Assembly: GCA_002633005.1 (NCBI GenBank)
Contig: NMRA01000142.1
Location: 186,001 to 250,000, forward strand
Source of the DNA: Phoronis australis
Lineage: Eukaryota; Animalia; Phoronida
Reading direction: 5' to 3'
DNA length: 64,000 nucleotides
The notes under the pieces were generated by a model. The model searched no databases. It had not been told where the DNA came from and saw nothing but the letters and a program-made list of their open reading frames with translations. The position numbers were made by a program, and so were the translations under genes. Shown here one piece after another: positions 4,201-25,200 of this stretch; position 1 is the stretch's first letter; each line of letters opens with the position of its first letter.

Positions 4201-7200
4201 AGATAAGAGCAATTATCGAAAAAAAGAGAGCCAGAATGGAGTTAATCAGTCACGTAAGACATTGGCTACAGGGGTATTCTTCCCAACTGGGCTATAGAAT
4301 CGAACAAGTTGGGATCAACAGGAAAACGTCATAGTGATTTTAATGCCCTTAAGTCATGGCTAATGCAGTAATTCAGTAATTGACCTATCGCAAGGTCCGC
4401 CCCTTTGCCTAATGTCGAGTAACAAACAATAAGTTTTACCCAGCAACATGTTGTTTGTCGGGTAAAATGGCGGCTTGGAAACGAAAGTGTGCCAATAATG
4501 CTGCGTTCTAAATGGTCAGTTCAGCTGTCACTCAAAATCCTGGCAATAGGTCAATTGTCCAGCCACACATAAAAGAATCCAGACCAGTGTTCCTGATATT
4601 GAAGGATTCTGTCTACCGTGATCTGTGTACAAATCTTTTGACAAAGTACACACACCGCTGTATGGGCCAAGTTTCTAACGAAGTCGTCACTAACTGCAAC
4701 TGATCTATTCCACACGTCGACATTTCTGACAACGTGGGGCAAAAAAGTACCTCGGGTAATTTCTGCAAGGAGATCCATGCGTAGAGGTCGGCTCTCTTAA
4801 CGGAAGAGCGCTTGTGAATGGCTGCAGACATGATGCTGTCATCTTGCGTTGGACTGGCATCGTGTCCCGAAGAGCTTGATGGACTGTCAACGGTGGACGT
4901 CTTTGAACAATATTGCACCTGAAGAAACGACAAACAGTATCAACACCCGATACAGGAATTGCAACTCAGAAGGACAAATATTTCAAGAATCTGTAAACAC
5001 CATTTCCAGCAAAAACAAGCTTAGCAAATGATCAAATGTCTAATTATGACACTTGCAATCACTGTCTGACAATGAGCTGAAGCTGTCTTTGATTACCGTA
5101 AACAACTTACCGTCAGTGGCTCTTAGTCTGTTTTTTAAAAAAGAAGCGGTTTCTGATGCTGGATAAAGACTGCTCAAGTTTAGAGTTGGTTTGATCGGTT
5201 GTCTTGACTCATCAGGTCACTTCATGTGCCGCTTTCAAGCATTTATTAACCGTGCTCACTACATGTGTCCCATCCAAACAGAGTGAGGAACAGAGATATC
5301 AAACTGATTTTAGAAGAGCAAAATACCTAATTGGATTTTAGTTTTTGGCAAGATAAATGATACTTAAACTAGGACCTTATCAACAAGTCTGCGCATTTTA
5401 AACTGTAGGCTGTAAATCAAAGCATATTATATTTTCTAATAGCAGAAAGCCTGTAGACTTTTAACTTTTTAACATTATACTGTTAATCGAGTCACTTGAC
5501 CATGTATTAAAAAAAAACATCAAAGAAGAAAGGACGGTACATTCATATCTCAGATATTGTCTTACCTTTACATCAACACCAGGTGAGTAGAAGACAGTAA
5601 CGTTGTCACCAGGAAAGGTACTCCCCTTGACTTTGGCACTGCTAGACTCCTGCTTACGTAACTTTTGAGGTAAAAATGGTGAATGTTGATAATCAGAGGC
5701 ACCAGACTTTTCCTTTCTTAGAGGCCTACAAGTTCAAAGTATAGTCATTGATGCTCACACTGGTTTTCAATGAAATAAATTATTCAGGTAACTACGGCAT
5801 TTTTGATCGTGAAAATTCCAGCATGCCCACTCAGGTGGGCCGAAATTTCTGACCAAGCCATAAAGCATGATTGTGAGTATTCCAGCACCGGATGGCCACT
5901 GAAGTAGGTCGATTTTTCTGAGCAAGCCAGAAATCATGCTCTGCTGTCAAACACAACTTTTTTCCTCAGCCGGTTTTGTTCTTTCAAAACAATGTTATCG
6001 TGCCCTTAACCTTTGATCGAATTGAAATTTGCTGCGGATATGAACTGTCAGTCTTTCTCAAGTCCAGAAATCATTTCAAATCTGAGTAAGGAACAATGTG
6101 GGACGGCTTTTACAAACCTTGGTGGCCTAAATAAAACTGGTTTCTGACAGAAGATGCTGTTTTATTATCCCTTTAATAGTCAAAATAAATTATTTCCCAT
6201 TACTTTTTGAAGCCAGCCTGAGAATACTGGCCGGGAGTGTCCTCATCCTTGCTCTCTTTGTCCTTTGGATGCAGCAATATCTCGCCACTGTTTATCTTGA
6301 CCTGAATGTCCATTTGAAGATCAATGATTGGCTCTGGAGCAGGGTTGCTCTTCTGAGAAGTGGGCATGTTCTCCGATATGATTGACATCCTGTGATGGAC
6401 GAATGAAATGAAAGATGTATAGTGTGGTTATGATTACTACCAAAACTGCCACACTATTGTCAGGAGAGTGACAGTGTGCTTTCTCAGACAAACTGAAATA
6501 TTGGAAAATAACAGAAAGTCAGGAAAATGAGAAATTTCAAACCTTTAATGGAACAGTATCTCACATGCTGAATATTTACATAATTCACACAAATGAGCAA
6601 AATTTTTCTCAATTTTAAGAAACATGATACCTGTAATACCTGTAATACCTGTCACGGACAGGATCATTGGGGATATGCTGGTGCATTAATCCCCTCCCCA
6701 GACCATCCCCGTGACAGCAGAAGGCGCAGAGACTCCAGGGCTGACGTTGCCGAAAGAAACATGATTAATCTTTAGTTCAAACCATCCACAAAGCAACAAA
6801 AGATTTAATTACAAAACTTATCTTCAATAATCCCTTACTTGTGAGATGCCTGATTGAGGTATTCTTTCTCAATGTCTGAGTCACTACCCGCCGATGAGGG
6901 AAGGTCAAGGGTCGAAGCACTGTCAAAGTTCACTTCCACCTTCACACCAGAGGGCGTCTGACTCGTGCATCGTCTCAGTAAATCGGCACGGTCAGCAGAC
7001 GACAACAGGTCATCCTTGGCTCTTTCTGGCCTGGAGTTAATAAAGATAAAGACGAATTGTGAGAAGCTAGCATTTTGACAAATGATTCCCAAGATTGACC
7101 TTTTACTTTTTTTCTAAGGCTTGAAACGTGGTCACGAGTCTTCATAATTTCTCAAAACATTATCTGATGTTAACTATGGTATAGAACTCAAAGATGACAA

Positions 7201-10200
7201 AGCAGGTGCCAATCATCCCTTAAGGAAAAGATGAAAAAAGAAAATTTCACTAGTCTGCAATATTGTGACTTTAACTGGTGAGATTTCACCATAAGTTTAG
7301 CGTCGTGTTAATTGCATTTGAATGAACTACTGGGCTCCAGGCCACGGAGGTACAAACAGAAATAAAGTCCTAAAACAAATGCTTAGCAAAAAGCAGCGAC
7401 TTGCAAATATAATGCCTTGTGCACACTCTTCCAATGTTGTATGGAATCATACAGTAAAGTTTTCAGTTAAGAGTAATCTTTGAATTAAAATGATAAGAAC
7501 ACCATATTTGATTGAAAATATGGAGACTAAATCACACTTGGTATAATTACTAATTTATTTTCATCAAAGACAATTTATACATAAATTATACAAAAATTGC
7601 ATAAAAAGCAGAAAATATATCCATATAAAGTGGTGCATAGTGAAAATATTGCAAAAACAAAATAACATTAATCCAATAATGACATGAGAAAAAATACCAT
7701 AACGTGCAACAATAAAACTATCTACTGACGAGCTAAGGTTCAGACTAATGCAATGACAATTTGCCACTAGAGGACACCACAGTAGTCAGATCAGTTCAAA
7801 AATGAATTACACAGTTGCCACTATCAGGGTTCCCATAACAAAAAATCCAAGTATTGAAGGACTCCTTTAGTTCTTTACCCGGGAAGTCGAAATTTTGCAT
7901 GCTAAGTAATGCCTGAGATTCTCTGGAAAGCAGATGGTTATTCAGCAAATTCTTGTTGTAACAATCTAAAAAATCACTCAAAGCTCACAGCAATTAAACG
8001 AATTGCCATAACATTAACTTTACAGGCATTACTAGGGATATGTAGGCGTACTTTTGGCAAATGTGAGTCTATTTTGACCCAAAAACATACGCTGTGGTCA
8101 ACATAAGATAATTCAAAATTCACTATCAAAACTGAATGAGAAAAATGCAACAGTTGAAATAACCGAATGTTCAGGCACATTCCACACACAGACAGCCAGA
8201 GGGCTTATCGCTGCGGTAAATCAAACACGTAAACAAACTGCTGCACACTTTAAGTGGCCATCCCTAGTAACCTACCCAATTTACAGAAGGACAGAGGGAC
8301 GCTGGACTTCAGACACTGAGTGGAATGATACACAAAACGTACCGAGAGTAGCGTAGATGAAATAATATCCCAAGAGACATTATTACGTGTATCCACCGAT
8401 ACCGAAGTTTATTTATCCCACAGGTTTCGAACTCTAAGATTTTAAATTTTTTCGGCAGATTTTTAAATACGCCACCCAGACTGTTCACGTGGCGCATAGA
8501 GTATGTACTTGCACGATATTAAATTTAAAACGTAATGATTTAACTTGAGAAGAGATAAAGATGAAAACAACAGTAATTCTGCAGTGAATTTGTAACATTT
8601 TTCTGAAAATAACTATACAATTACAATATTTAACATAGTTACCAAGAAATCTGGGCCTGAGACAGAAGTGTTCTATAATTAACAGTTTTGAACCGGATGC
8701 TATGTTTGGGACCCAATTGCATGTTGAGTGTTCTTTATACTATTGCAACTACATTACTTTAACCCATTTTGAAAAAGTTTGATGATCGAGCTGGCTAACG
8801 ACATCGAGTCGACATTGATGCGATACGGAAAACAATACAATATGGCTGTATTTGCACTCAACTTAATCAACGCGTATGGGGTAAATAACATATACATAAA
8901 CTGTGGGAGCGAAAAAAATGCCCCTAGGGGTTACAGACGTAGTCAAATCTGTTCGTAAATTTGCGCGTACACTCCCAGCTATGAAAGGAACGTGTCAGCA
9001 AAATTTCATCACAGTGTTAGAAATACTGCAGCAGACGCCCCAGACATCTACCAAATGGAGAAAGCAATATGTGTCCAGACATGACGTATATGTGAGAACA
9101 TAAAAATGTGCAAAATGAGCAGAAGGAACACTAAGAAACATAAAATACATAATTTTGTGTGCGCGCTTGCAAAATTCAAGAGCTCTGGTACATTCACTTT
9201 GCCCATGTCAATTAAACATGGAAGCAAGAAATAAAAACTGAGATTAAATCAATCTATTAAACAGGGTCCTCGTACATATATCAAGTACAGAACCAGACAC
9301 CACATGCTATATCTTTTTGTTTTCCATTTTCATAATTAACCTCCTTGTTATAAACCAGATGAGGACCTATTGCACACCACAGTATATGTTCCACATGGCT
9401 GGGCATTGATAACATAATACAATATAGTCCTTCAACACTACTTTTTGTACACACAGGAAACTGGGTCATAACCAACCAGATAAGATTTCATGTCTAGGCT
9501 TTTCTAAATGGCTCACTCAAGTGTTCAAAAGTAAACTGACATATTGCCAACAAAAACCTGGCGAGCTGACTGTAAATCAATACTGAGCACAATAAGGACA
9601 CATAGACAGGATATGAAAGAGAAAGGGAAACTCCATCTATTGAGAGATTAATTCTTCATTCTTCAGAAAGGCAGTTGCACCTTGATGGTGAGTCAATGCT
9701 GAGTCATATCCTGGGACAGGCCAGGATTACAAAAAACTTTATGAATCTTCTGATATGCATATAAGTTTGAAATTTTTAACACAAGGATGCAGAAGAGGAC
9801 AAGAATCTACTGAGACAGGTCATATAAAAGTAGACAGTGTTTTGTTAAGGTAAGTTATTACGCAAGACTCTGTTGTGACTTGAGACCACACAAACCAACA
9901 TTCACAACAACTCTGACAAGGTAGAATGGTAACTGATCAACACATCAGTGTTGATCAACAAATTAAAGTACCTGAAACACGGTAATCTTCCTTAATGTTA
10001 TAGTCTTAAGTTGAAACTTTGAATCAGTGTATCATTTCAAAGTGGGAGGACATCTGAACTCTTTATAGACATCCATGGTGGACAAACAACAACTAAAAGT
10101 ATGAAACGGTCTATGTGATTAAACCACATAAAGTAGCTATAGTAAATACGGCCAACCACCTTATATTCAGAAAAGGTTCAGTATCCCAGTTATTCTAAAC

Positions 10201-13200
10201 AGATGATCTTTAACAAATATGCAGACACCTGTACTTATTTTCAAATGCAGTCCACTTAGAGCTCAGTGTCTGTTAGCCATGACTTGAAAGCTAAGCATAG
10301 TAAACCTCATGATGTTCATGTACAAAAAGCAAAGAGAGCAAATAAAATGATATAAGGTTTGTTGTTTTGTCACTTCCTATTTTGAGAAAGAAATTTTTAT
10401 CTGAATTTGACATTCAGTGGTAAACAGCTGGTAGGCTTTCATAATGACAACAGACAAGGTCAGACCTAGATTACTAGGTCAACAAAGGTTTCTAGTGAGG
10501 CACTTACAGTACAAGCCATAAGCATTCTGACAAAATGACTCATAATTCCCCACCATGATGGCTGGGTGGAAGCCAAATTCATCATAAAATGGAAGTCCTC
10601 CCTCATGACCGAGAACTGAATGAAAGTTTGTAAGGTGGCTAAGCCATTTTGTAATTTGAATTTTGCTGCACTGAATGGTTAATTATTACCAGTCATTTTT
10701 GCTGTTAGCAGAATAAATTGCCATGACAGGAAAATGGTATTTTATGTGCTTGCCTTTGTCTTGCATGATATCCTAGAAGTATGGTAAGTTCTCATGAATC
10801 CGGACAAAAATAAATGCCAAAAACGACATCATATCATGTTTCGAGGACTTCTAATACAGTTATAGTCATCCCAATTTTTCAACATGTTGTCAAGTGGCAG
10901 GTACCGTACAAAACATGAACTTGAAAAAGCAGTAATTTGTTGCTAAGTATATTTTGTGAAAAAATCAAGAAAACACAATTTCACTTCTGTGACAGAGTTC
11001 TTATCATTCTTGTTGAGGCCTGACTTCCAATCCTGTGATAGTAGACTGAATATTGCACTACAATACTGGATAGCTCCATCAAATCCAGCCAGGCCATGCC
11101 AGCTGACCATAAGCTACTTTTGAGACGGTTCCAAAAGTACAAAGTCAGTATGGCGAAAACAAGCAGCAAGAGTATTACTATGACAGATGGTATATTCACA
11201 ACAAAAAGTATTTGCAATGAAGTGAAAGTTTCACCCTTACGCAATTACCTCTACACAAAACACCAGCTGCATGTTGCATTGACCATTTATGTAAAAAAGT
11301 TAGAAACACAAAACCCACCAGTTCATAAATCTCAGAGTCTTGTACAATTACTTTTAAAAACTAGTATATTTCAACCCAAGAAAAACTTCAGCATCATCTA
11401 CTTTAGACCAGATCCGCCATGACAGACTCTCTACGACGTGGTTTTGATCATACATTAGAAATACGACCTCAGCTTCACGATACCTTGTGCTTTGTCAAAT
11501 AATAACAACTGCATCAATTGTAACCCATGTCATTATCGTGAATGTGAGTCAAAGTTCCTTTCGATGTGTAAAAGAGTTATCACCACATCAGCAATGACTA
11601 CTCCATAAGAAACTCAGCCTTTTCAGAGCACCTTGTACTTCACCAATAGATCTGTACAAGTTCCATGCAGTCCTTAAGAGGCCAATTTACCATCACGCAA
11701 CAATCACAGTCTTAAAGTTTTATGCAACACAGTTCAAACTGGCATCAGCATTTAGAAAACCCTTTTGTTCTGGAGTTGAAACTGAACATGGCCGACGTTA
11801 ATAATCTTTCCCTGAAATTGTTACTACATAAAGTTGTATTATCAACATGGGTCCTGGGGACGCAGACGACTATTGAACGTTGCGTGATATACCCCCAGAT
11901 CAAGCCTCTCGGCCCATTTATGGACTACGCCAATCCATCGACACATCAAGCTTCATTCACCAATGACCAATGAGTTCATTGTAATTTAGCTCATTGATCT
12001 GATCAGTTCAAACACATAGATACCAATAGTTCTTTTGCATGTTTGCATTCTTATGTTACAGTTACTATCAGTAGTTTTTCGCTCATTTCACACAAAATAA
12101 ATTACATATATTTTCCAATAGTCACGGTGTGTGAAATAAACTCAACATGTAGATTTCATGATTTACGGGAAATTAACTGAGTAACCAAGCATCGCCAACT
12201 GCCCGTGTGCAAATTTCATGCAGACTTAATGGGCTGCCAAATTTATTTCATTTTAAATGTTTGATGGAGCATAAGTCATAGTTAGTATTTTTCGCATTTG
12301 TTTTAGGCCAGAACAGAAGCACGAACTTTAAATTTTAAAGTTCGTAGTTAGTATTTTGTCAATATAGCAAATTCCTGTCTTACGTCTTAAGTCACTTTCA
12401 TGAAACAGGCCTATGGTGCAGTGCAGGATACTTGTTGTTCACAATAATATCAAATGCACAGCGTTGGTCACCGTGTGAATATGTAAAACACAAATATGAC
12501 ACTGTTACGTTTGGGTCGTGATCAGAAGCTTGCAGTCTATTTTAAATGTTTATTAATTAAGCACTAAAGTTCTCGTGTCTTGAGTCCACAGGAAGAGAGA
12601 ATCAAAGGCAAGTTGAAATCGTATCATTCTCCAGTAGAGGAGAGTTATCATGTGGGTATAACTCCATGTGTGGTAAAGCAACAAACTATATAACAAACAC
12701 TTCCACTATAATTTCAGATGGCGAGAAAAAGGATCATTCCAATGGCATTTATACTACTCTGGACCACGTCAACGGGGCTTGCAAGTGCTGCCGCCTACTG
12801 TCCGCAGAACTGCACATGCACAAGCCAGGTGCCACCATTACTACTCTTCTGGCTCCCACAAAGGGCTGTAGCCAACATTCAGTGCCGCATACGAGAAGAT
12901 GGATTCGTGCTTCACGATGAGGTCAAGCACATACTGTCCTCGAGAAACCATACACCACTTCTTTTCTTGGTCATGAAATGTGACAATGGCATCAGAGTTC
13001 AGTGGGATGATGCTAGCTTTCTAGAACGTACCGTGGGACTAGTAATAGGCAGCTGCCGGTTTGACCAGGCAACGGCATTAAAGTTTCCGAACAGGACCAT
13101 GCTGGTACATTTACAACTCCTAAATGTTGGAGAAAATTTCCTTCAGAAAACTTCCTTCAATGGCTTAGAAAACATTAGGACACTACTCGTGGATGGTAAT

Positions 13201-16200
13201 GCTCTGTCAACCATCCCCATCTCACTGAGAAACGCAGCGACGACAATGAAGGATTTATTCCAAGCCGACTTTTCATCAAATCAACTGAAAACATTTGACT
13301 GCAATTTATTCAGACACAGCAGATATCACGGTATTTTGTCGATTTACTATAAAAACAATAGCATGACACAAATTCCGCCGTGCTTTTGCAACACCTCATA
13401 CCTCTCTGTAGATTTTAGTCACAACAAAATTACAGACATCAGTTATTTGGGATGTAGTCAAACGAATAACTTTAATTTGTCTTTCAACAAGATTACGACT
13501 ATACCAAAATTTTACAAAGACAGACTACATAATCTGATGTCTCTCATACTGGATAACAACAACATTTCGGTCATTAAGACTGGATCTTTTGTGCAACAAT
13601 TGCTGTCTTTGCAAACACTCAGCCTTGCAAATAACAAAATTACTAAGATCGAGCACCATGCCTTTGGATCTTTGAACTCACTCGTCAAGCTTTCCCTCAA
13701 TGGTAATCGACTACAGACATTTGACAAAGCAATGGCACCTACGGCAACCATTCATCCCTTTGAGATTGACCTGAGGAACAACACCCTGAAACATCCGCCT
13801 TATGAAAATCATGATTACATTGGCCCGTCAAATTCCGTAACCTTAATTGCCGGAAACCCATACCAGTGTGATTGTGCCATGGGTAGGTTTATAGAAGCCA
13901 TGAAACGCAGCAACGTTATGGACAGACTGAGAGGAGTGGAAAGCGCGATCTGCAAGACTCCACAAGACCTGAGTGGAAGCAGACTAGTAGATCTCAACTT
14001 TAATGAAACCTGTGACTACATTGATGAATGCCCCACCAACTGTAAGTGTGTAGAAAACAAATCAAGCGAGACAGTCGCTGTTGACTGCAGGCAATCTAAC
14101 CTTACATCAATGCCCGATGTCATGCCGGAAGGATTTCTAAAGGTGGACCTCAGTGGCAATGCAATACAAGTACTGCAAAGACGTGAGTATTTGAACAGTG
14201 TGCTGGAGTTAGATTTAAGTCACAATCAGCTAAACCATGTATCTGAGTTGGCAATGCACCAACTGGATAAGATAGCTAAGTTATGTATGGACAACAATAA
14301 CCTAGGCAGACTGCCAAGGATTTTGAGTGATTGGCATCCCATCAATTTAACTTCTCTCCGCCTACACAATAATCCCTGGCAATGCTCCTGCCAGACACTT
14401 TGGCTGAAAACCTGGCTCAGTAGGTTCGGTTCAATTTTGAAAAAACCACAAGAAGTTCGGTGTTACAAAGATGGCCGCTACCAAGCGTCCGTCCTTACTA
14501 CTGCAATCACCTGCACGGACTACAAACTAGAAGCCATCAGCGTGTCCACTATAGCAGCTCTCTGTTTACTGGCGGGTCTGCTGGTCTGGTACTACCGGTG
14601 GGAGATCAGACTTTTGCTACATATGCATCTCAAACGGTATCCTTTTGACGGTGAGAGTGCTCGCCAAAAGACATACGACGTCTTCATCTCGTATTCAGAA
14701 GAAGATGCTCCGTGGGTACGAGAAAGACTCGTCCAGATTTTGGAGAAAGAGCACCAGCAGCCGTTGAGAGTTTGCTTTCATGAGCGTGACTTTATATGCG
14801 GTGCGCCTATAGCCTCAAATATCCAGAGCGCCATTGAAGACAGTCTCTTTGTCATTATTGTGATGTCGCCGGCATTTTTAAGAAGCGAATGGTGCATGTT
14901 TGAGTTCAAATTAGCGCACAATTGCATGTTGAAGAACATCATTGCTAATACGCTTATTGTGCTCAAGGAAATGCCCGACATTCATGGTCTCGACGTTCTT
15001 CTCCGCTCTTACTTTCGCACTAAAGCATACTTGGATGTTAGAGACGATGCCTTCATAAACAAACTGTATGACAAACTTAAAACAAACCGCAAACAAGATG
15101 AGCTACAAGAGTCCCTAAACAATGGTCTTATTGGTGGCGCAGAAGTAGGGACTTCCGGACGTTGCCACTTAATTGGCAGGCAAGAAAATGTAATTTAATA
15201 GACTCTAAATAGACGTCAAGGACCTCCTGCAGCTGCGGATGCATAATAAATATATTGTAGACAGTGTGTTACTGGCTTAACAGACCACGTGCAAGATTGT
15301 TACAACAACAGACAGTAAATACTGACATGCTTTCACATTATGTTGTAATCCTATAAAAATCTTGGAGGTTGCAGATTAATACACTATGTACATGGAATAC
15401 ACACAATAATTGATATCTTGCATTTTTAGTATTTTCTTGTCTTTCTGTGATGGCATCACAGACAGCAACAAATCCACCATCTTAGTCCCAAGCACATGGC
15501 ATATTTGATTACGACTGCACAACAATCGCCTGTTTACACACTGTCAAGTTTAACATTTTTGCATTGCCTGATTCATGTATTGCCTTTATCGATAGGTCAA
15601 TGGCATTTGTGGAGGTGTTCGAGATATTTACAGAGCTCTCCACAAGTAAAAAAATATGTTTCAAAAGTGCGCGAATGCTAAAAACGTGCCCCCTACTTTT
15701 GAAATTTTTTTGATTAAGCGCTCACCGCTCAGGCGAGTGCCAACTCATAATTTGCTTCACAGAATTTGAAAACAGTAAAGTGCGTTTTCAAATCCGGAAA
15801 CTGGGCATACATTCTATAGACACAAGAACCTTGCGAATTCTTGGCGAAGTCTTGGAAACTCTCGCAAGTGTTTTTGCAAAGTTCTCGCATCTATGGAGTG
15901 CATGGCTTACCTGTGACATTCTTTGGTTGCCTTATGTTTTCCATATAGGGCACATAGTCTGTGCCAAGAAGCAAATGTCGGGGACATTTTGCAGATGACC
16001 TATTTTTTTCCATATATGGCATACATTCAGTGCCACGGGAGCAACCTCAAATCATTGAACAAGAGTGTTGAAATGTGCCCACAAATGCATCGCAAACGGT
16101 TTGCTTTTGGATTGTTTATTAGTCATAAAAATGGCCACTACATGGCGCAAAAATGTACAATCCATCCGAAAATGGGAACATGTCATAGCTTTTTTAAAAG

Positions 16201-19200
16201 AAAGCTATTCACCAAATTTCATAGAAATCTGTCATGATGGAACTTCAGAGAAACAAAGGAAAACAGAATAAAATGAAAACTGCCACTAGGGGGCACAGTG
16301 TTCATTGGATCCACCTGAAAGTCGTCATTGTCCGTTGTTATTTTCATATAAATACACTTCCTAAATTTAATAAAGACCCAGTAGTGAGTTTAGGAGGTAC
16401 AGCTATGGGCGCAAAAGAAAACAAAACTACCATAGAGACGCCACAGTAGTCAAAGTCGTCGTCGTCAACCATCCTCTTCACAGAGAGAACATAAACGCCA
16501 ATTTTCAAAACCATCCTTAGACTGATTTGGTTGATAGAGGGGTGGCCGCCAAAAAACAGATTCGAAAACAGCAAAAATGGCCACTAGGTGGCGCAAAATA
16601 CCTTGATTCCTTCCAAAAACGAGAGGATAGCGTCGTCTCACTGAGAGATGCCTGTATTCAAAATTTTATGAAATTCCGTTGAGGACCCTTGAAGATACAG
16701 ACTGAGGTAAATGTAAAATATAAAATTGCCACCAGGGGGCACACCAATAGTCACATCCATCTGAAAGTCGTCATTGTTCTTTGTCAACATCATATAAATG
16801 CACTTGCTAAATTTAGTAAAGATCCTGTAAACCATTTAAGATATACATCCATGGGCGCAAAAAACGAAACTGCCACTAGGAGGTGCCACAGTAGCTGAAG
16901 TCATCGAAAATCATCGTCACCTGTCCACTTCATAGTAAAAACATACATGCCAATTTTCACAATTATCCTGAAAGCGGTTTGGTTGATAGAGGGGTGGATG
17001 CCAAAAAACAGATGCGAAAATGGTAAAAATAGCCACCAGGTGGCGCAAACTAAATTGAATCCATCTGAAAACGGAAAGATAGCGTCAACACACTAACAGA
17101 AGCCTGTACGCCAAATATTTGAAAATACATTGAGGACCTTTGAATATACAGAGGTTAACGCAAAAAAAATTGCCACCAGGGGGCACACCAGTAGTCAAAT
17201 CCGTCCGAAAGTCGCAGTCCTTTGTCAACATCATATAAATGGACTTGCTAAATTAAGTAAAGATCCTGCAGATGGTTTAGGAGATACAGCCATAGGTGCA
17301 AAAAAAACAAAACTGCCACTAGGAGGTGCCACAATCGACGAAATCGTCGGAAAATCATCATCAGCTATCCTCTTCACAGTAAGAACATACATGCCAATTT
17401 CCACAATCATCATAAGAGCGGTTTGGTTGATAGAGGGGTGGACGACTAAAAACATACTCGAAAACAGTAAAAATGGCCACTAGGTGGTGCACATTATGTT
17501 GAATCTATCCGAAAACGGGTGGATAGCGTCATCTCACTAATAGAGGCCTACATGCCAAATTTTATGGAAATACGCTGAAGACCTTTGAAGATATAGAGGG
17601 AAGCGTAAAAACTAAAATTGCCACTAGGGGCAGAACGGTAGTCGAATCCGTCCGAAAGTATGCTCATGCCATCCCATCCATGAAAGGAACACGTGCAAAA
17701 TTTCATGAACATAATCATGTGAAACGGTTTTGGAGTTAGAGTAACGGACGCCTGAAGCCGGACGGACGCCGGACGGACGCCGGACGGACGCCGGACGGAC
17801 GCCGCCCAGACGTACGGATGGAGATGATGGCATAATGCGTCCACATGTAAATAAAATGGAGGGAGTGCACTTACATTTACCCAAGTTGCACCTACATGAC
17901 TTTGATGACATCGTAGGTCAGTCCTAGAAATTTGGCAGACATTTTCTCCTATTTCGAGTTGTATGATACTCTTGCTACTCAAATTCATGTTTTGGTCAAA
18001 GAGCGCTAATAGATGGGGACGCAGCATCAATAGCTTTTGCACAAAACTTTGGAAGTGCCAATCTCAAGAAGACTTTCTAAAGGCATTTATTGGTAGATAT
18101 TGAGTAACCTACAACACAGGTAAAATTATCACGAATACTTGTCAAATTCAGCTGAAAATCAACACCAATGAAACTATCTCTAGAAGGTGCTGCACAAGTC
18201 TATTCCCTTGAAAAAATAGGCAGGCGCTGAAATATCCTACTGACATTACAGCCGTTCAAGACTGCAGAATGCTGTCCATCAACTACACTATCACCATCTA
18301 GCTACAAGGGGTATTTCACCATGTCACTCCTAGACCACAAAATGGCTACCGAGGAAAACAAAATTAAAGAAAATAGTCAAAAGGGAGCAGCACTAGTTGA
18401 ATCCATCCATGAATCAACATCAGCAACCCAACAGCCACACTAATTGAATAAATGAGATAAACAACCAAGAACAAAATAAATGCAGCTATGAACAGCAAAT
18501 TTCATAAGCATCAGAGCCTTGTGCGAGCAACCTAAACAGAGAAATTAACCAGATAGGATGCAAAACCAAGACAACATGCAAGCAAATCAATCATACAAGA
18601 TTGTTCATCATACAATAGGTACATACGGATGATTGAATTCACCGCTCACCACAACAGAGAATCAACGAAATTTAATGCAACTCACTCGAATGCATTGTCC
18701 GACAGGTCGGATAGTGGTCTGTCGGAGGGCAGAGACGTGTCTAGAAGCTGGAGGTGAATGTCAGTGGTGGCCCTGGAACAAGAGTATCATGCAGTCAGTA
18801 GGCTATGGTACTACAAGCAGGTGATGATAGACTATGGGTAAGTTTCACAAAAAGTGCATCAAGACTTAAAGAGGAATGCAAAACCTGTTTTAAAGCAATA
18901 TTTAGTAAGAATACTGATCCCCGGTTATTTTGGGTATCTGCGCTTTCATATAGCAGTTAAAACTGTTGTTGACCTGGCGTGTATTTATCACACTTGGCCC
19001 AATAGAAAGCGTCACAACCGGACAAGGAAAAGGCCAGTGTTTTGGTTCTGCATTCCTTTCATTCAGCAAATGCAATGAACACAGTTTGTGTCGGTCATTT
19101 GTGTTACGAATGGAAGTGAAATGTAGAAACAGAATGAGAGGATTTCGGCCATACACGACACTTTCTTTTGATCCATGCACAGTAAATACACACCTACGGA

Positions 19201-22200
19201 ACAGTAACTAATGGGAAAAATGTCTTGTCGTGAAAAATGGTCGTCACTTTCCCCTTTAAATCAGAAATGGCCTCTTACGCTCCACACCACTACCGGTATT
19301 TCCAAAAATGCTTGAATCTCGCCTCGGCACAGTTCCAAGTCTGAGAAAATACCTATCATTGGCAAATAACGTGTCGTGTAATTAACATTTTGATAAACTG
19401 TGACGTACGAAACCGTACATTGCAAAAGCTGTATTCAGTAACAGTGGGAGCTGGACAAAATTTGTTGTGATTCGAGTCTAAAGTCATTTTTCATGAAACA
19501 GGTCCATGCAACAAGAGATTGGGTGTAGACGCATGCAAACTGCCTGGCAGGGAATTAAAAGTATGGACCTCCAGTACCCTGGGTAAAGAGAGCAGTGAGG
19601 ACCATTCGGTCATAAAAATGATGAGTTGAGCATTCTTGAGAACATTTCGGGCAACAAGCCTTGGTCAGTACAAGGATTTGTGGTGTGATACTGCACCCCC
19701 TCCCCACCTGAGATAATACCGTCGAAAGAACAAAGTAGTGAAAAAAAGCCAAAAACTGACCTGAGACGATACGCATGAAGTCAACTTACCCATTCAAGAT
19801 TACACCCAAGAGAGAAAAATACCTGACAAGTCAAAATACCAAAAAAGATGTCTGAGGGATTAAGCGCTGCCAGTTGCAAAATTCGCATCTGATTTGGCAG
19901 CACTGCCCAACCAGCTCTTCCGAGGTCAAGGCTTTTTTGGTTATGCCATGTATCGCTTAGTTTGACAGACAGTAGCCACTGAGGTAAGGCAAAATCTCAC
20001 CACTTTATAATACAATAAGACAGACAAGTAAACTCTCGTTTTATTTTTCACAAAAGACAAGTATTAACAAATAAACACTTGTTAAGTTATTTAACATAGT
20101 TACCACCAGGCTATGTTTTGAGAAACTCTGGCCATTCGTCACTAAGTCAGAAGCCTGGTTAGAAAAATGGGAAAATGTCAATTTTGGCAAAGTTTTTTGC
20201 TTGAAATTTTGGTGAGATTGTACCATCAGCTTTAAAGCGGCAAGTGATGTATATTGTGTAAGAGTGCGAATAGAACACGATGCAGGGAGAGCTGTATAAA
20301 AGAGAATAATAAGCTTACAGTGACTTCTTCAAGGGTACGCCAGTGATCGCCGATCGGCTTCGCATGTGACCAGACACTGATGGTTTATATCCCAGACCCA
20401 ACTTATCCTTCAAACTGGCAGCCTGCAATACAAACACAATAGAGAGCATTGTTCAACTAGATATTAGAAGAATTAAGTTATCATTCATTTCGAGCACAGT
20501 TCTCCAGGAAGTCACTAGGTGGAGCTTGCATAAACAGGATCACTTAACGTCACAACAAATCTACAATATTCAAGCAACTCTGCACTTTTGTAGCAGATTC
20601 TAAGCTTGTCTTTCTTAAGCACTCTCAATGAGATCGAGTGTACAAAATGTTTACGCACCTTGACCTTTTTGGTCACGTATTCACTAGTTTAATGACAACA
20701 GACTGGATAGAATCATTCATGAATAAGGTTATTTATAGCAGTATAGACATTGATGTTTTACCTTACACTAATATGACATTGACTGGGTCATGTGACCATG
20801 TCTTTTATATAAAATTCAGCAAAAAAGGGGGAAGATAAATTCATAGCAAAACAACTGATTAAGTAACATTGGCCACATTTCATTTGATATCAATGTTCCA
20901 CGATATTTCAAAACACTATTAAATTTTCTAAAATTAGCTTTCGTTTTCATTTTAAGTTTACGTTCTTTCTAATAAAAATCATAAAAGCTTATTTTTGTCT
21001 TAATTTTGTTAGCCCCTGCCTGTATTAGCAGGTCGCTGATAAAGAAATATAATGCTATTTTTGCTACCAGCATTAACTGAAGAATAAAAGAATAGAATGT
21101 TCGCAAACTCAAAATGGATAACTGAAAACTGCCACAAAGACGGAGCTGCAAAAGTTTAGACAATACAAATCGTAATGTTTTGTTTTAAAGAATTACCGGT
21201 CTTCGTAATCTCAATGTTACCCTTATAGCAATTGACCACTGCCGGAGCCTCTCTCACCTGAGCGAAATTTACCTGTGCCACCTAGGAGGCTTTTTTCGGT
21301 ATGGACAAAAAACCCATAGTCACCAACAATTTGAGGGACTGTGTGAGTTAGAAGTGAATTCTAAACCGGAAGGGAATTTTTTAATAATTGAAGGAAAGTT
21401 TTCAGGCGTGGTGAGCGGAATTGCGGGTGATTTTTAAATACTTTTCAAAGGGAAATGGAGCTAATATTTGACTCCAAAATCGAGGCGTCGGGAGCCCTGA
21501 ACTGAGAGGCAACTGAAATCTACAGTTGTTACAAGACAAAAAGTAAACAGACAGAATACTGTCTCCCCACCATGACTGCTAATTCTGTTAACAGCAAAAT
21601 TGATTGGTAATAATAACAAGGGCAGCACAATTCTAGTATAAAAAATGGCTTAGCCACCGTATAATTTTCTCGTTCATTGCTCTTTATTCTCAGACAGGAA
21701 GGAACACTATTCTGACGATGACAGTGGCGTCTGCTCAGACGTCATGACGGTGAATTCTGGGTAATTTTGTCTGAATACTTTTGGTTTATATTGTATCACC
21801 AAACACAGAACAGATACGAGTGTCTGCTGCAAAACTGTACCTTGACGCTCTGAGCCCTGATCTTGCTGACGATATCCCGTCGGAAATCGTGGTACAGAAC
21901 AGCCTCCAGCTCTTGTAGTTTCTTTTCTTCTAAGTCAATGTAAGCATTTTTGGCGCCAAGACTCCTGCAAGTGCAGACTATATGTATAGCAGGTTACTTT
22001 GCAAAGACAGTAAAAATACAAGATACAATGAAAAAATGAAGCGAGGGCAGACAAACGACGAGGCAATGTTTGTAAAAGCCACTTTATTTTTTTTTGTTTT
22101 GGAGCGGAATCCCCCGTTTTGGTTCAAGAATACGCTGATTTAGCATTCCAAATTACACAACCTAAATCAAATGGACTTTGATTGCTTGAATGGATAGATT

Positions 22201-25200
22201 CCCAGTCACCAGCTTAAGATATCCCAGTTTGAAGTAAACACTATTGAATTTGCCTAGTAATTAGAGGCACTTCAACGAACAAAATGTTTTAGTAAGGCCT
22301 TAACTCTCTAATGTCTTCAATTAAAATTTACAACTTACCATGCATGTTTTACCCAAACAATTCATGCGATGAAGACAAAGATTTTCTTCTAAAAGAGAAT
22401 CCAGTATAAATGGCACTCTCACGCATTCAAATCCACACGTAGAATATTAGTTGTGATTTGAATACACATAGAGAAGCTTTTAGTATGGCCAGCTGGATAG
22501 TTCTAACTTTAGAATGTTAAGACTTTGGAATAAACCAATAAAACAACTTTGCATAAGAAAGCGTAGTTTATTTAAATTGCCGAACAGTTTCATTTGACTG
22601 GTAAGTTTGAGGAAGACCTTCGAACAAGACAGTTATAAACATCTACTAGGTATAAAAAATTTCCTGACTGTGAACAACTGAATTCAAGTGCACTCTCTTG
22701 CTTCAATTTAGTTTGAAATTGGTGATTTTGAATTGTCCTAGTGCTGAGAAGCCCATTAAGAGAAACTACACTAAGCTTGCGGATGAAAAAACAAAAAAGT
22801 TACTGACAATTTAGATCTTAAAACTGTACTAGATGAAATTTGGCTGGCAAACCTTCTCCCTGAAAGCCAGCTTCAGCTTAAATGCCCCAGGATACTTGGG
22901 AAGTGATAATAAATATAAACTTTTACGAGCGTCAACACCCTAAATCTAGCATTTGTTCATAATTCCAGAAATCTTTGTCAAAAATACAGACAATTCGTTG
23001 CAGCACAGCCTTTAAAAGGTAAATTTCAGGATTATGGATGTTTTGCCAAACATTGGGGACCTGAAGCAACTTATTTGGATAACCTGCTACCGTTTCGTCA
23101 AAAGTCAAGAATTGTTCACGCCAGAAGTTAACATCACATTAATTCACAGCTCATCTTGTGTCGGACTGTTGTGAAATCATTTTTGTCCCCTGTTTAAGAG
23201 TTTGATTGCCAGACTTTGTAAAAGTCTTCTCACTAATTCCTCAGGACCCCATGACTACTACTTGGTCATTAAATATGATGATGACATCTGTCTTGGCCGA
23301 CTGACCTGGCGGAACCGGCGAAGTCAATTGAAATGTCAGCTCTCGGATTCTGGAATGCTCGATTTTTTGGTAAAAATAGCATCTACTGATAACTCATGAG
23401 TATTTTTAAGCTCTAGCATCTTGCTAAACGTTGAAAAATCCGGGAATTTTTTATTAAGCTTGAGCCACACAGTAGATCCCCATTCTGATGTGTGCGATAT
23501 GCAACGGACTCACTCACTTGAGATCTTGTACAAGGCGAGCCTGTTCGTTCATTTCTCGTTCTATCAACCTCACTCTCAGTTTGGGGTTCATAGACGTGTC
23601 ATAAACAAATGGAGGAAGACTGTCAGACACTTTCACTGACAACAGTGTCGGAGCATCAATCTAGTGTGGAAACAACAAAATATTACTTTACTCACAACAC
23701 AATTTTTTCCTTTAAATGTGATATTACAGAGTCCTGGATGGTAAACATCAATAGGCAATTTCACATCCATAATTGCTATGTCAGAAGTTCATCCCATGCA
23801 CCCATAATTATAATCATTTTTAACAGATAAAACTTAATAAAATGATCCTGAAATTCTTAAATTATGTCAGAAATTTTATGAACATCAAAGTAATGTACAG
23901 ACTAGGTATGTAGTTAAGTGACCACAATGTGTGATTACTTCAAGGGCATCGCAATAACTAACACAGAATATTTGCCAGAAATTTGCAACAATTGTTTTTC
24001 ATTATTCCATAATAATAGAAACTAAATGCAAAAATTTTGTAATGTCGTAAAGCAATGCTTGCTTTATAGCTTTTTTGGTAAACTGTGTGCAGCTCCCTTA
24101 ACTATTTTAATTAATGAAGTTTGCACAACAATAAAGCAGCCTTAAACCCGTGAGGAAAAAAACAGGCTACTTCCGACTTTGAATTGATCTCAATTTTGAG
24201 TAAAAGGATTAGACCTCAGCCCAGCTTTCAAAATTCTCTTCACCTCGTCTTCTTTTTCCTCGTCGTTTGGCTGATCATCAGTGGGCAGTTCCTCATCGCT
24301 GGCCAGAGCGGTCAGTGTCTGACCAAGGATGTTGAGTCGCTGACCGATGTTAGTGTCCAAATGGACGTTGATGCCANTAAAGCAATGCTTGCTTTATAGC
24401 TTTTTTGGTAAACTGTGTGAAGCTCCCTTAACTATTTTAATTAATGAAGTTTGCACAACAATAAAGCAGCCTTAAACCCGTGAGGAAAAAAACAGGCTAC
24501 TTCCGACTTTAAATTGATCTCAATTTTGAGTAAAAGGATTAGACCTCAGCCCAGCTTTCAAAATTCTCTTCACCTCGTCTTCTTTTTCCTCGTCGTTTGG
24601 CTGATCATCAGTGGGCAGTTCCTCATCGCTGGCCAGAGCGGTCAGTGTCTGACCAAGGATGTTGAGTCGCTGACCGATGTTAGTGTCCAAATGGACGTTG
24701 ATGCCATCCATCTCCCACAGAATGTTAAGTACCCACTTAGCAGTGCTGGAGGGGTCTGTAGAAGTAGATTATCTTGTCTTGAGCACTTTTTTAATGATGA
24801 AAAACAGGTAACCGATTTTACGCTTCAATAACCAAGTCTTAACACAATGGTTTTAACAGCCGATAATGTAACAAGAATACAATTAAAAAGTCAGAGAAAT
24901 TAAATTTCTTCATAGTAAACAAAATATAACTAAAAACATTACTCTGTAACAGTTTTGAAATATTTCTTGTCAACTGAAACTATCATATATACAAAGAGCA
25001 TCGACACAAAAGGTCCCTTACCAAAACCATTGCCAACTCGACATAAATGTGCGCAGTGCTCAGTCCTAAAATGGGTGAAAAACAATCCACAATAAGCACA
25101 CAAACCTGAGACAGTATTCACAATTGTTTTTGAGCAAACTTCATAGGTTCCCTGAGGTACGACACAGGCGTTCATGATGATGCCTGCCTCTGGACTTGGA

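What the first reader, a model, noticed from the sequence alone, without database searches (positions are those of the whole stretch)
7031..18685. Self-contained antisense immune module (mcc-type TLR) nested in the largest intron of BLTP1
Seen: an intact 826-aa single-exon TLR ORF lies on the opposite strand inside the 11.65-kb intron between BLTP1 exons 40 and 41; every other traced intron is under 4 kb. Established: nested genes are usually antisense and often intronless, and lineage-specific TLR expansions are common in invertebrates. I do not know of a TLR nested in BLTP1/KIAA1109. Inference: the TLR was inserted (retroposition or DNA-mediated capture) together with regulatory DNA, and its induction could interfere with host transcription or splicing in a region of BLTP1 made of symmetric phase-2 exons.
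Basis: partly seen in the sequence, partly recalled or inferred. Interest (0 to 1): 0.75.

Follow-up and report, generated by a model that had tools for sequence, protein, structure and literature searches.

The report
Immune receptor nested in BLTP1 intron
A complete, transcribed Toll-like immune receptor gene, with its own spliced leader exon and a predicted immune-responsive promoter, lies backwards inside a long intron of the lipid-transport gene BLTP1 in what is likely a horseshoe worm; both genes are spliced normally, so this is a real but likely ordinary nested gene.

Summary
The nesting is real. Stranded RNA reads splice BLTP1 across the 11,655-nt intron (18686/7030; 5 and 2 reads in two of three runs) and across its neighbours. 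The 826-aa TLR (12718-15198, +) is transcribed at 11-17x from the opposite strand. One correction: only its coding region is single-exon. A non-coding leader exon ending at 9849 splices over 2,868 nt onto the ATG. The transcript ends near AATAAA at 15245, 3.4 kb short of the next BLTP1 exon. A tight IRF-like/NF-kB/AP-1 motif cluster (9615-9706) sits at its 5' end, the only one in the window (post hoc test, binding untested). The receptor is a short multiple-cysteine-cluster TLR. Its closest relatives seen are published phoronid clade-alpha TLRs (about 59% TIR identity, counted by hand), so the duplication is old. No poly(A) tract or target-site duplication supports retroposition. No exon skipping, antisense read-through or short host isoform was seen, and the two genes are co-expressed. 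Immune challenge and synteny could not be tested. Antisense nested LRR genes are a known layout (LRRTM in alpha-catenin). Verdict: new member of a known kind, low-to-moderate interest.

The parts
7031..18685 (-). BLTP1 host intron, 11,655 nt, GT..AG, phase 2
   Evidence: junction reads 5 (X6), 2 (X7), 0 (X8); no N
18686..18772 (-). BLTP1 exon before the intron ('exon 40'), 87 nt, symmetric phase 2
   Evidence: upstream junction 4, 10, 0 reads
6839..7030 (-). BLTP1 exon after the intron ('exon 41'), 192 nt, symmetric phase 2
   Evidence: downstream junction 11, 12, 0 reads
20319..20422 (-). BLTP1 'exon 39', 104 nt, phase 0 to 2, conserved anchor
6204..6389 (-). BLTP1 'exon 42', 186 nt, symmetric phase 2, conserved anchor
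9615..9706 (+). Predicted immune-type promoter cluster: tandem IRF-like GAAA repeats 9615-9630 overlapping an NF-kB consensus 9625-9634, AP-1 consensus sites at 9689 and 9700
   Evidence: consensus motifs recalled, binding untested
9680..9849 (+). TLR non-coding leader exon (5' end approximate; a contig of run X5 reaches 9480)
9850..12717 (+). TLR 5'-UTR intron, 2,868 nt, GT..AG, acceptor directly before the ATG
   Evidence: 3 (X6) and 4 (X7) reads, 6 reads of a variant allele in X8; contig 10 of X5
12718..15198 (+). TLR coding exon, 826 aa: signal peptide, LRRs, internal LRRCT+LRRNT (aa about 380-470), LRRs, LRRCT (552-599), transmembrane helix (about 604-626), TIR (653-777)
15199..15270 (+). 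TLR 3' UTR with AATAAA at 15245-15250 (end approximate)
   Evidence: depth zero in bin 15472-16025
15680..17853 (.). High-copy repeat block, with a 3 x 444-nt tandem array and an 11-nt microsatellite (HINE/Helentron-like), bearing CTCF-like motifs

Best explanation
A functional short multiple-cysteine-cluster Toll-like receptor gene is transcribed from its own start inside a BLTP1 intron, on the opposite strand, and likely arrived there long ago as a DNA-level duplicate of a phoronid clade-alpha TLR, with its promoter likely switched on by NF-kB, IRF and AP-1 and with likely little effect on BLTP1. Shown: transcription from about 9.7 kb, splicing of a leader exon onto the ATG, termination near 15.27 kb, and normal removal of the whole 11.66-kb intron from BLTP1 RNA in the same samples. 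Inferred from family knowledge: the protein is a type I membrane receptor whose LRR ectodomain binds a microbial pattern or host cytokine and whose TIR domain signals to NF-kB, which would feed back on the kB site in its own promoter. Inferred: the opposite orientation hides the TLR's splice and poly(A) signals from the host transcript, which is why the insertion was tolerated.
For: Stranded depth 14.5x, 16.6x, 11.3x over the TLR coding region, all but traces on one strand. Five of five BLTP1 junctions in the stretch are seen in X6 and X7, host exon depth about 4-14x. No TLR-strand reads in bins 15472-16025 or 18242-18795. 25 listed coding variants: 12 synonymous, 13 missense, none nonsense, pN/pS 0.32-0.43, p 0.005-0.03. 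Motif cluster unique in 64 kb; 0 of 20,000 150-nt and 2 of 6,000 500-nt simulated bins hold all three motif types. TLR unit (5.8 kb) plus repeat block (2.2 kb) leave 3.7 kb, the size of the next-largest introns. Published phoronid paralogues share its unusual ectodomain. Host-strand AATAAA density in the TLR unit (0.69/kb) is no higher than in other introns (0.84/kb).
Against: The mode of arrival is not shown: no parent locus, no synteny, no genome held. The motif test was post hoc. The big-intron junction has fewer reads than the others (7 against a mean of 14; p 0.08 on reads, 0.12 on distinct starts, and counts are overdispersed). BLTP1 is nearly absent in X8 while the TLR is expressed. The TIR BB loop has Cys694 where a published paralogue has the usual Pro, so canonical adaptor binding is not assured. 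About 300 nt of repeat (7860-8155) between exon 41 and the TLR promoter is not bridged by a listed DNA contig.
Confidence: 0.68

Rival explanations
1. Old retrocopy: a TLR mRNA was reverse-transcribed into the intron and later recruited an upstream promoter and a 5'-UTR intron. It works the same way today, only the origin differs.
For: The splice acceptor lies directly before the ATG and the 3' UTR is short. Single-coding-exon nested genes are presumed retroposed in the LRRTM/alpha-catenin paper (PMC3933685, passages).
Against: No A-tract after the poly(A) signal and no flanking direct repeat around the coding region. Unbroken coding regions are normal for TLRs in mussel and sea urchin. A bare retrocopy would have had to gain an immune-type motif cluster afresh.
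Confidence: 0.17
2. Functional coupling: immune induction of the TLR promoter changes BLTP1 output in cis, either by polymerase collision that lowers full-length BLTP1 or by divergent firing that makes a short BLTP1 RNA from exon 41 onward.
For: The promoter lies 2.6 kb from exon 41, back to back with the 3' part of BLTP1. The nested ceh-10 gene induces a short polq-1 RNA in C. elegans (PMC12274878, abstract and passages). Junction 41-42 has 23 reads against 7 for 40-41. An in-frame Met opens exon 42.
Against: No host-strand reads in bins 8824-9931, where a new first exon would lie. Junction 42-43 is low as well (6 reads in X6+X7), and downstream versus upstream junction counts do not differ (p 0.37). 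No 39-to-41 skip among the 15 of 25 joints listed. The run with least BLTP1 also has the least TLR.
Confidence: 0.1
3. Assembly error: the TLR block was placed into the intron through flanking repeats.
For: Repeats flank the TLR unit on both sides, and no listed DNA contig spans the whole intron. A duplication around an N at 24377 shows the assembly has local faults.
Against: No N in the intron. DNA contigs at single-copy depth cover 6887-7859, 8156-12196 (three overlapping pieces) and 12377-15947, and RNA splicing links 9849 to 12718. Only the 300-nt link at 7860-8155 has to hold for the TLR to be intronic. X1 may be the source of the assembly, so it is not independent.
Confidence: 0.05

Closest known systems
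Phoronid clade-alpha P-type TLRs Pau-TLRalpha3, alpha4, alpha5 and Pps-TLR4 (PMC8609888, supplementary file 3; rows cut at about 360 residues)
   Same: Short mcc architecture; by eye the same cysteine pattern and degenerate LRRs in the N-terminal half (alpha3, alpha4, Pps-TLR4); 54 of 91 identical residues in the first part of the TIR with alpha5, counted by hand.
   Different: This protein is not among the 24 P. australis rows as displayed, and six probes found no hit in the held text. It has Cys in place of the BB-loop Pro. The table gives no genomic context.
Oyster sPP-type TLRs, mussel SPP mccTLRs (PMC4346834, PMC10279657; passages)
   Same: Short protostome-like TLR with an internal LRRCT-LRRNT pair; coding region in one exon in mussels; putative IRF sites reported in the promoter of one oyster TLR.
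   Different: Those genes are described mostly as tandem arrays (57 of 83 oyster TLRs); this one stands alone in the window. Orthology to sPP was not tested.
LRRTM1-3 nested in alpha-catenin introns (PMC3933685; abstract text and passages)
   Same: LRR transmembrane gene on the opposite strand of a large host intron, nearly all coding sequence in one exon, small first exon. The paper notes that 12 of 19 lost nested structures held LRR genes.
   Different: LRRTMs are synaptic adhesion proteins without TIR, the nesting is conserved across jawed vertebrates, and the introns are 50-450 kb. Conservation here is unknown.
Opposite-strand nested gene pairs of Drosophila and C. elegans (PMC5174743, PMC12274878; passages; PMC13343718 abstract)
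   Same: Opposite-strand nesting is the majority layout (71.3% in D. melanogaster; 567 pairs in C. elegans).
   Different: No BLTP1/KIAA1109/tweek/lpd-3 host with a TLR turned up.

Membership tests
Toll-like receptor | LRR ectodomain + one transmembrane helix + TIR domain | tested here: met
   Pfam LRR_8 E 6.5e-20, TIR_2 E 3.8e-18; hydropathy peak at 604-626 and at the N terminus
Toll-like receptor | Ligand binding and TIR signalling through MyD88-type adaptors | not testable with these tools
   No assay; BB loop has Cys694 where Pro is usual (role of the Pro recalled)
mcc / P-type TLR | Two or more LRRCT clusters, commonly with an internal LRRNT (definition from PMC8609888) | tested here: met
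   Cys 384/386/412/432 and 556/558/582/599; LRRNT 438-470, Pfam E 0.0036, below its cut-off
TLR clade alpha | TIR groups with insect Toll and other mcc TLRs | tested here: inconclusive
   Joins the Toll-containing group at 96/87 but on a long branch, midpoint root, 39 rows kept of 86 given, no clade test run. Similarity to published Pau-TLRalpha rows is by eye
sPP-type TLR (molluscan term) | Short length with LRRCT-LRRNT in the ectodomain | tested here: met
   826 aa against 1,000-1,380 aa for most Toll hits; definition
sPP-type TLR (molluscan term) | Falls in the molluscan SPP sequence cluster | not tested
   No identified SPP sequence was in the tree
Opposite-strand nested gene | Whole transcription unit inside one host intron | tested here: met
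   Reads span about 9.5/9.7 kb to 15.3 kb, inside 7031-18685
Opposite-strand nested gene | Host exons on both sides are spliced into one mRNA | tested here: met
   7 junction reads in 2 of 3 runs; frame open
Retrogene | Genomic poly(A) tract and target-site duplication | tested here: not met
   such marks decay with age
Retrogene | Loss of introns relative to a parent gene | not testable with these tools
   No genome held, no parent locus
Transcriptional-interference pair | Nested-gene activity changes host level or splicing in cis | tested here: inconclusive
   No sign in three bulk runs of unknown condition

The most novel reading that the evidence does not exclude
An NF-kB/IRF/AP-1 promoter planted inside BLTP1 wires a bulk lipid-transfer gene into the immune response: infection fires the TLR and, in the same nucleus, either throttles full-length BLTP1 or drives a short C-terminal BLTP1 isoform from exon 41/42, while the neighbouring CTCF-motif repeat array shields the 5' part of the gene.
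Probability: 0.08. Interest if true: 0.65.

Novelty: new member of a known kind. Interest (0 to 1): 0.27.

Why it matters
It adds an expressed TLR that is missing from a published phoronid TLR list as far as I could read it, and shows that TLR counts made from gene models may miss genes hidden in introns. The compact IRF/NF-kB/AP-1 cluster is a ready reporter construct for asking whether such enhancer logic operates in a lophophorate. The locus could serve as an inducible test of host/nested interference, but nothing seen so far says the pairing with BLTP1 has a function.

Tried and rejected
No whole genome is held, so paralogue loci and synteny could not be searched. Protein searches found no close relative: best identity about 25% full length, and 1 hit among 470 candidates for the TIR region, 39% over 58%. 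The ESM Atlas gave only generic Toll/TLR clusters, and PDB only distant LRR and TIR chains. A single-sequence AlphaFold model had mean pLDDT 33.5 and was not used. The run search listed no indexed holder on record as RNA; expression rests on laying raw reads of runs added by species label. A candidate host exon at about 6656-6745 was dropped: reads join 6839 to 6389 directly and that stretch is a repeat. Composite-transposon capture: related repeat pieces lie on both sides (7757-7805, 8914-9009, 16123-17853), but they are high-copy and differ from each other, so I do not take them as ends of one element. The automatic gene model missed three exons and took in a duplicated one; it was used only for intron sizes. 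The phoronid genome paper cited in PMC8609888 is not held and was not read. Literature searches for a TLR nested in BLTP1 or for nested TLRs in general gave no relevant paper in the listings; the library lacks most subscription journals.
Full report
Observation. The window holds most of a BLTP1 (KIAA1109/tweek/lpd-3) gene on the minus strand: 8 of 9 minus-strand ORFs scanned hit Pfam BLTP1_N, _M or _C, and full-length homologues align collinearly from 63.7 kb down to 1.1 kb. Among 15 homologues scored, the limpet Patella protein P0167 scored best (3,024 bits). The window covers about residues 177-4183 of its 4,863, so the gene runs past both ends and 'largest intron' and the exon numbers refer to the window only. 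An approximate automatic model gives 45 other introns, median 655 nt, largest 3,712 and 3,384. The 826-aa ORF at 12718-15198 on the plus strand is open and carries LRR, LRRNT and TIR domains.

The host is one gene across the intron. In stranded RNA runs X6, X7 and X8 (one study, about 18-19% of each run read), junction reads were 6/7/0 for 21841-20422, 4/10/0 for 20319-18772, 5/2/0 for 18686-7030 (11,655 nt skipped, GT..AG on the minus strand), 11/12/0 for 6839-6389 and 4/2/2 for 6204-5725. The six exons join in one frame without stops. No skip of exon 40 appears among the 15 of 25 joints listed. The intron has no N. DNA run X1 gives contigs at 42-58x over 6887-7859, 8156-12196 and 12377-15947, so the TLR looks single-copy; X1 may be the source of the assembly. 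The 300-nt repeat at 7860-8155 is the one link that no listed piece bridges and that the nesting depends on.

The TLR is a two-exon, expressed gene. Reads come from the strand opposite to BLTP1, at mean depth 14.5, 16.6 and 11.3 over the coding region. A leader exon ending at 9849 splices to 12718, directly onto the ATG (3 and 4 reads in X6 and X7; 6 reads of an allele with a different sequence near the donor in X8; also contig 10 of X5). Coverage fades between 9717 and 9687, while an X5 contig reaches 9480, so the start is only approximate. Coverage ends near AATAAA at 15245 and is zero in 15472-16025. I took the 25 variants inside the coding region from the truncated lists (40 of 765 and 40 of 104 rows shown; non-coding rows dropped): 12 synonymous, 13 missense, none nonsense, pN/pS 0.32-0.43, p 0.005-0.03 against neutrality. 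One of them (13761) also shows in the DNA run and may be an assembly error. None of the three indels listed lies in the coding region. This is polymorphism, not dN/dS, but it fits a gene under purifying selection.

Promoter. I noticed by eye, and then tested, a cluster at the 5' end: tandem IRF-like GAAA repeats (9615-9630) overlapping an NF-kB consensus (9625-9634), and two AP-1 consensus sites (9689, 9700). None of these motifs is enriched in the window as a whole (18, 7 and 69 of 100 shuffles reach the counts). Their co-occurrence is unusual: this is the only place in 64 kb with all three within 150, 300 or 500 nt, and 0 of 20,000, 0 of 10,000 and 2 of 6,000 simulated bins of those sizes hold all three. 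Twelve motif classes were scanned, so allowing for 220 possible triples the 500-nt figure rises to roughly 0.07. The consensus motifs are recalled from vertebrate and insect factors; binding is untested. Putative IRF sites in an oyster TLR promoter are in print (PMC4346834, passages).

What kind of TLR. It has an N-terminal hydrophobic leader, degenerate and then regular LRRs, an internal LRRCT-LRRNT pair (about 380-470), three to four more LRRs, a second LRRCT, a transmembrane helix and a TIR. That meets the mcc/P-type definition (PMC8609888, passages) and the short form called sPP in oyster. Databases gave nothing close. A TIR tree of 39 rows (of 86 given; the rest lacked an alignable TIR) places it with the Toll-containing group at 96/87, on a long branch. 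I then read the phoronid rows of supplementary file 3 of PMC8609888 (35 rows, most cut at about 360 residues). Pau-TLRalpha3, alpha4 and Pps-TLR4 share its unusual ectodomain by eye, and the fragment Pau-TLRalpha5 matches 54 of the first 91 TIR residues by hand count, against 39% for the best database hit. The organism is therefore likely a phoronid, and the subfamily is present in at least two Phoronis species. The protein itself is not among the rows as displayed; the cut parts could not be seen. These paralogues are too distant to be a recent parent. The BB loop has Cys694 where alpha5 has Pro.

Origin. Removing the TLR unit (5.8 kb) and the repeat block (2.2 kb) leaves 3.7 kb, like the next-largest introns, which fits an insertion into an ordinary intron. 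There is no A-tract after the poly(A) signal, none of 7-9 nt direct repeats flanking the coding region, and only one 10-nt chance-level match around the whole unit. [quoted passage not shown] I favour a DNA-level duplicate that kept its promoter, but this is inference.

Interference. BLTP1 exons are covered at about 4-14x in X6 and X7, close to the TLR, so the genes are co-expressed in bulk. X8 has almost no BLTP1 and the lowest TLR level, which is not the inverse pattern, though three runs of unknown condition say little. The big-intron junction is somewhat low (7 against a mean of 14; p 0.08), but so is the 42-43 junction, and counts are overdispersed. No TLR-strand reads lie over exon 40, and no host-strand reads lie in 8824-9931, where a divergent short isoform would start. 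Host-strand poly(A) hexamers are not enriched in the TLR unit. Interference and induction of short host RNAs are both documented for other nested pairs (PMC5174743, PMC12274878; passages), while a 2026 analysis found nested genes no more likely to diverge in expression (PMC13343718, abstract).

Comparison and verdict. Opposite-strand nesting is the common layout (71.3% in D. melanogaster; 567 pairs in C. elegans), and LRR genes nested in big introns are known (LRRTM/alpha-catenin). Seven unchecked notes of this scan describe TLRs nested in other hosts in other invertebrates; they are leads only, but they fit TLR nesting being recurrent. Searches found no paper on a TLR in BLTP1. The locus is real and probably undescribed, but of a known kind. 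The most useful additions are the hidden leader exon, the promoter cluster and the link to phoronid clade-alpha TLRs.

Noticed in passing
window 16123-17853: High-copy HINE/Helentron-like element (3 x 444-nt tandem array, 11-nt microsatellite; anatomy compared with PMC7492417 passages). It carries 7 of the 11 CTCF-like motif matches in the window, all in one orientation (0.21 expected by chance; consensus recalled). It lies between the TLR 3' end and BLTP1 exon 40.
   Followed up: partly
window 24048-24707: 330-nt tandem duplication, 99% identical, with the window's only N (24377) between the copies; it repeats the 3' part of a BLTP1 exon. Likely a scaffolding artefact.
   Followed up: yes
window 14797-14799: TIR BB-loop codon gives Cys694 where the published paralogue Pau-TLRalpha5 has Pro; may change adaptor use.
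   Followed up: partly
window 9833-9849: Run X8 carries an allele with a different sequence just before the leader-exon donor, yet still splices to the ATG (6 reads).
   Followed up: no
window 9480-9849: The leader region holds eight upstream ATGs with short frames (5-82 codons), which could dampen translation.
   Followed up: no
window 5500-22100, run X8: BLTP1 junction reads total 2 in X8 against 30 and 33 in X6 and X7, while TLR depth falls only by about a quarter; cause unknown.
   Followed up: no
window 13761: All three RNA runs, X5 and DNA run X1 read A where the window has T (Phe348 to Leu); likely an assembly error or a private allele.
   Followed up: partly
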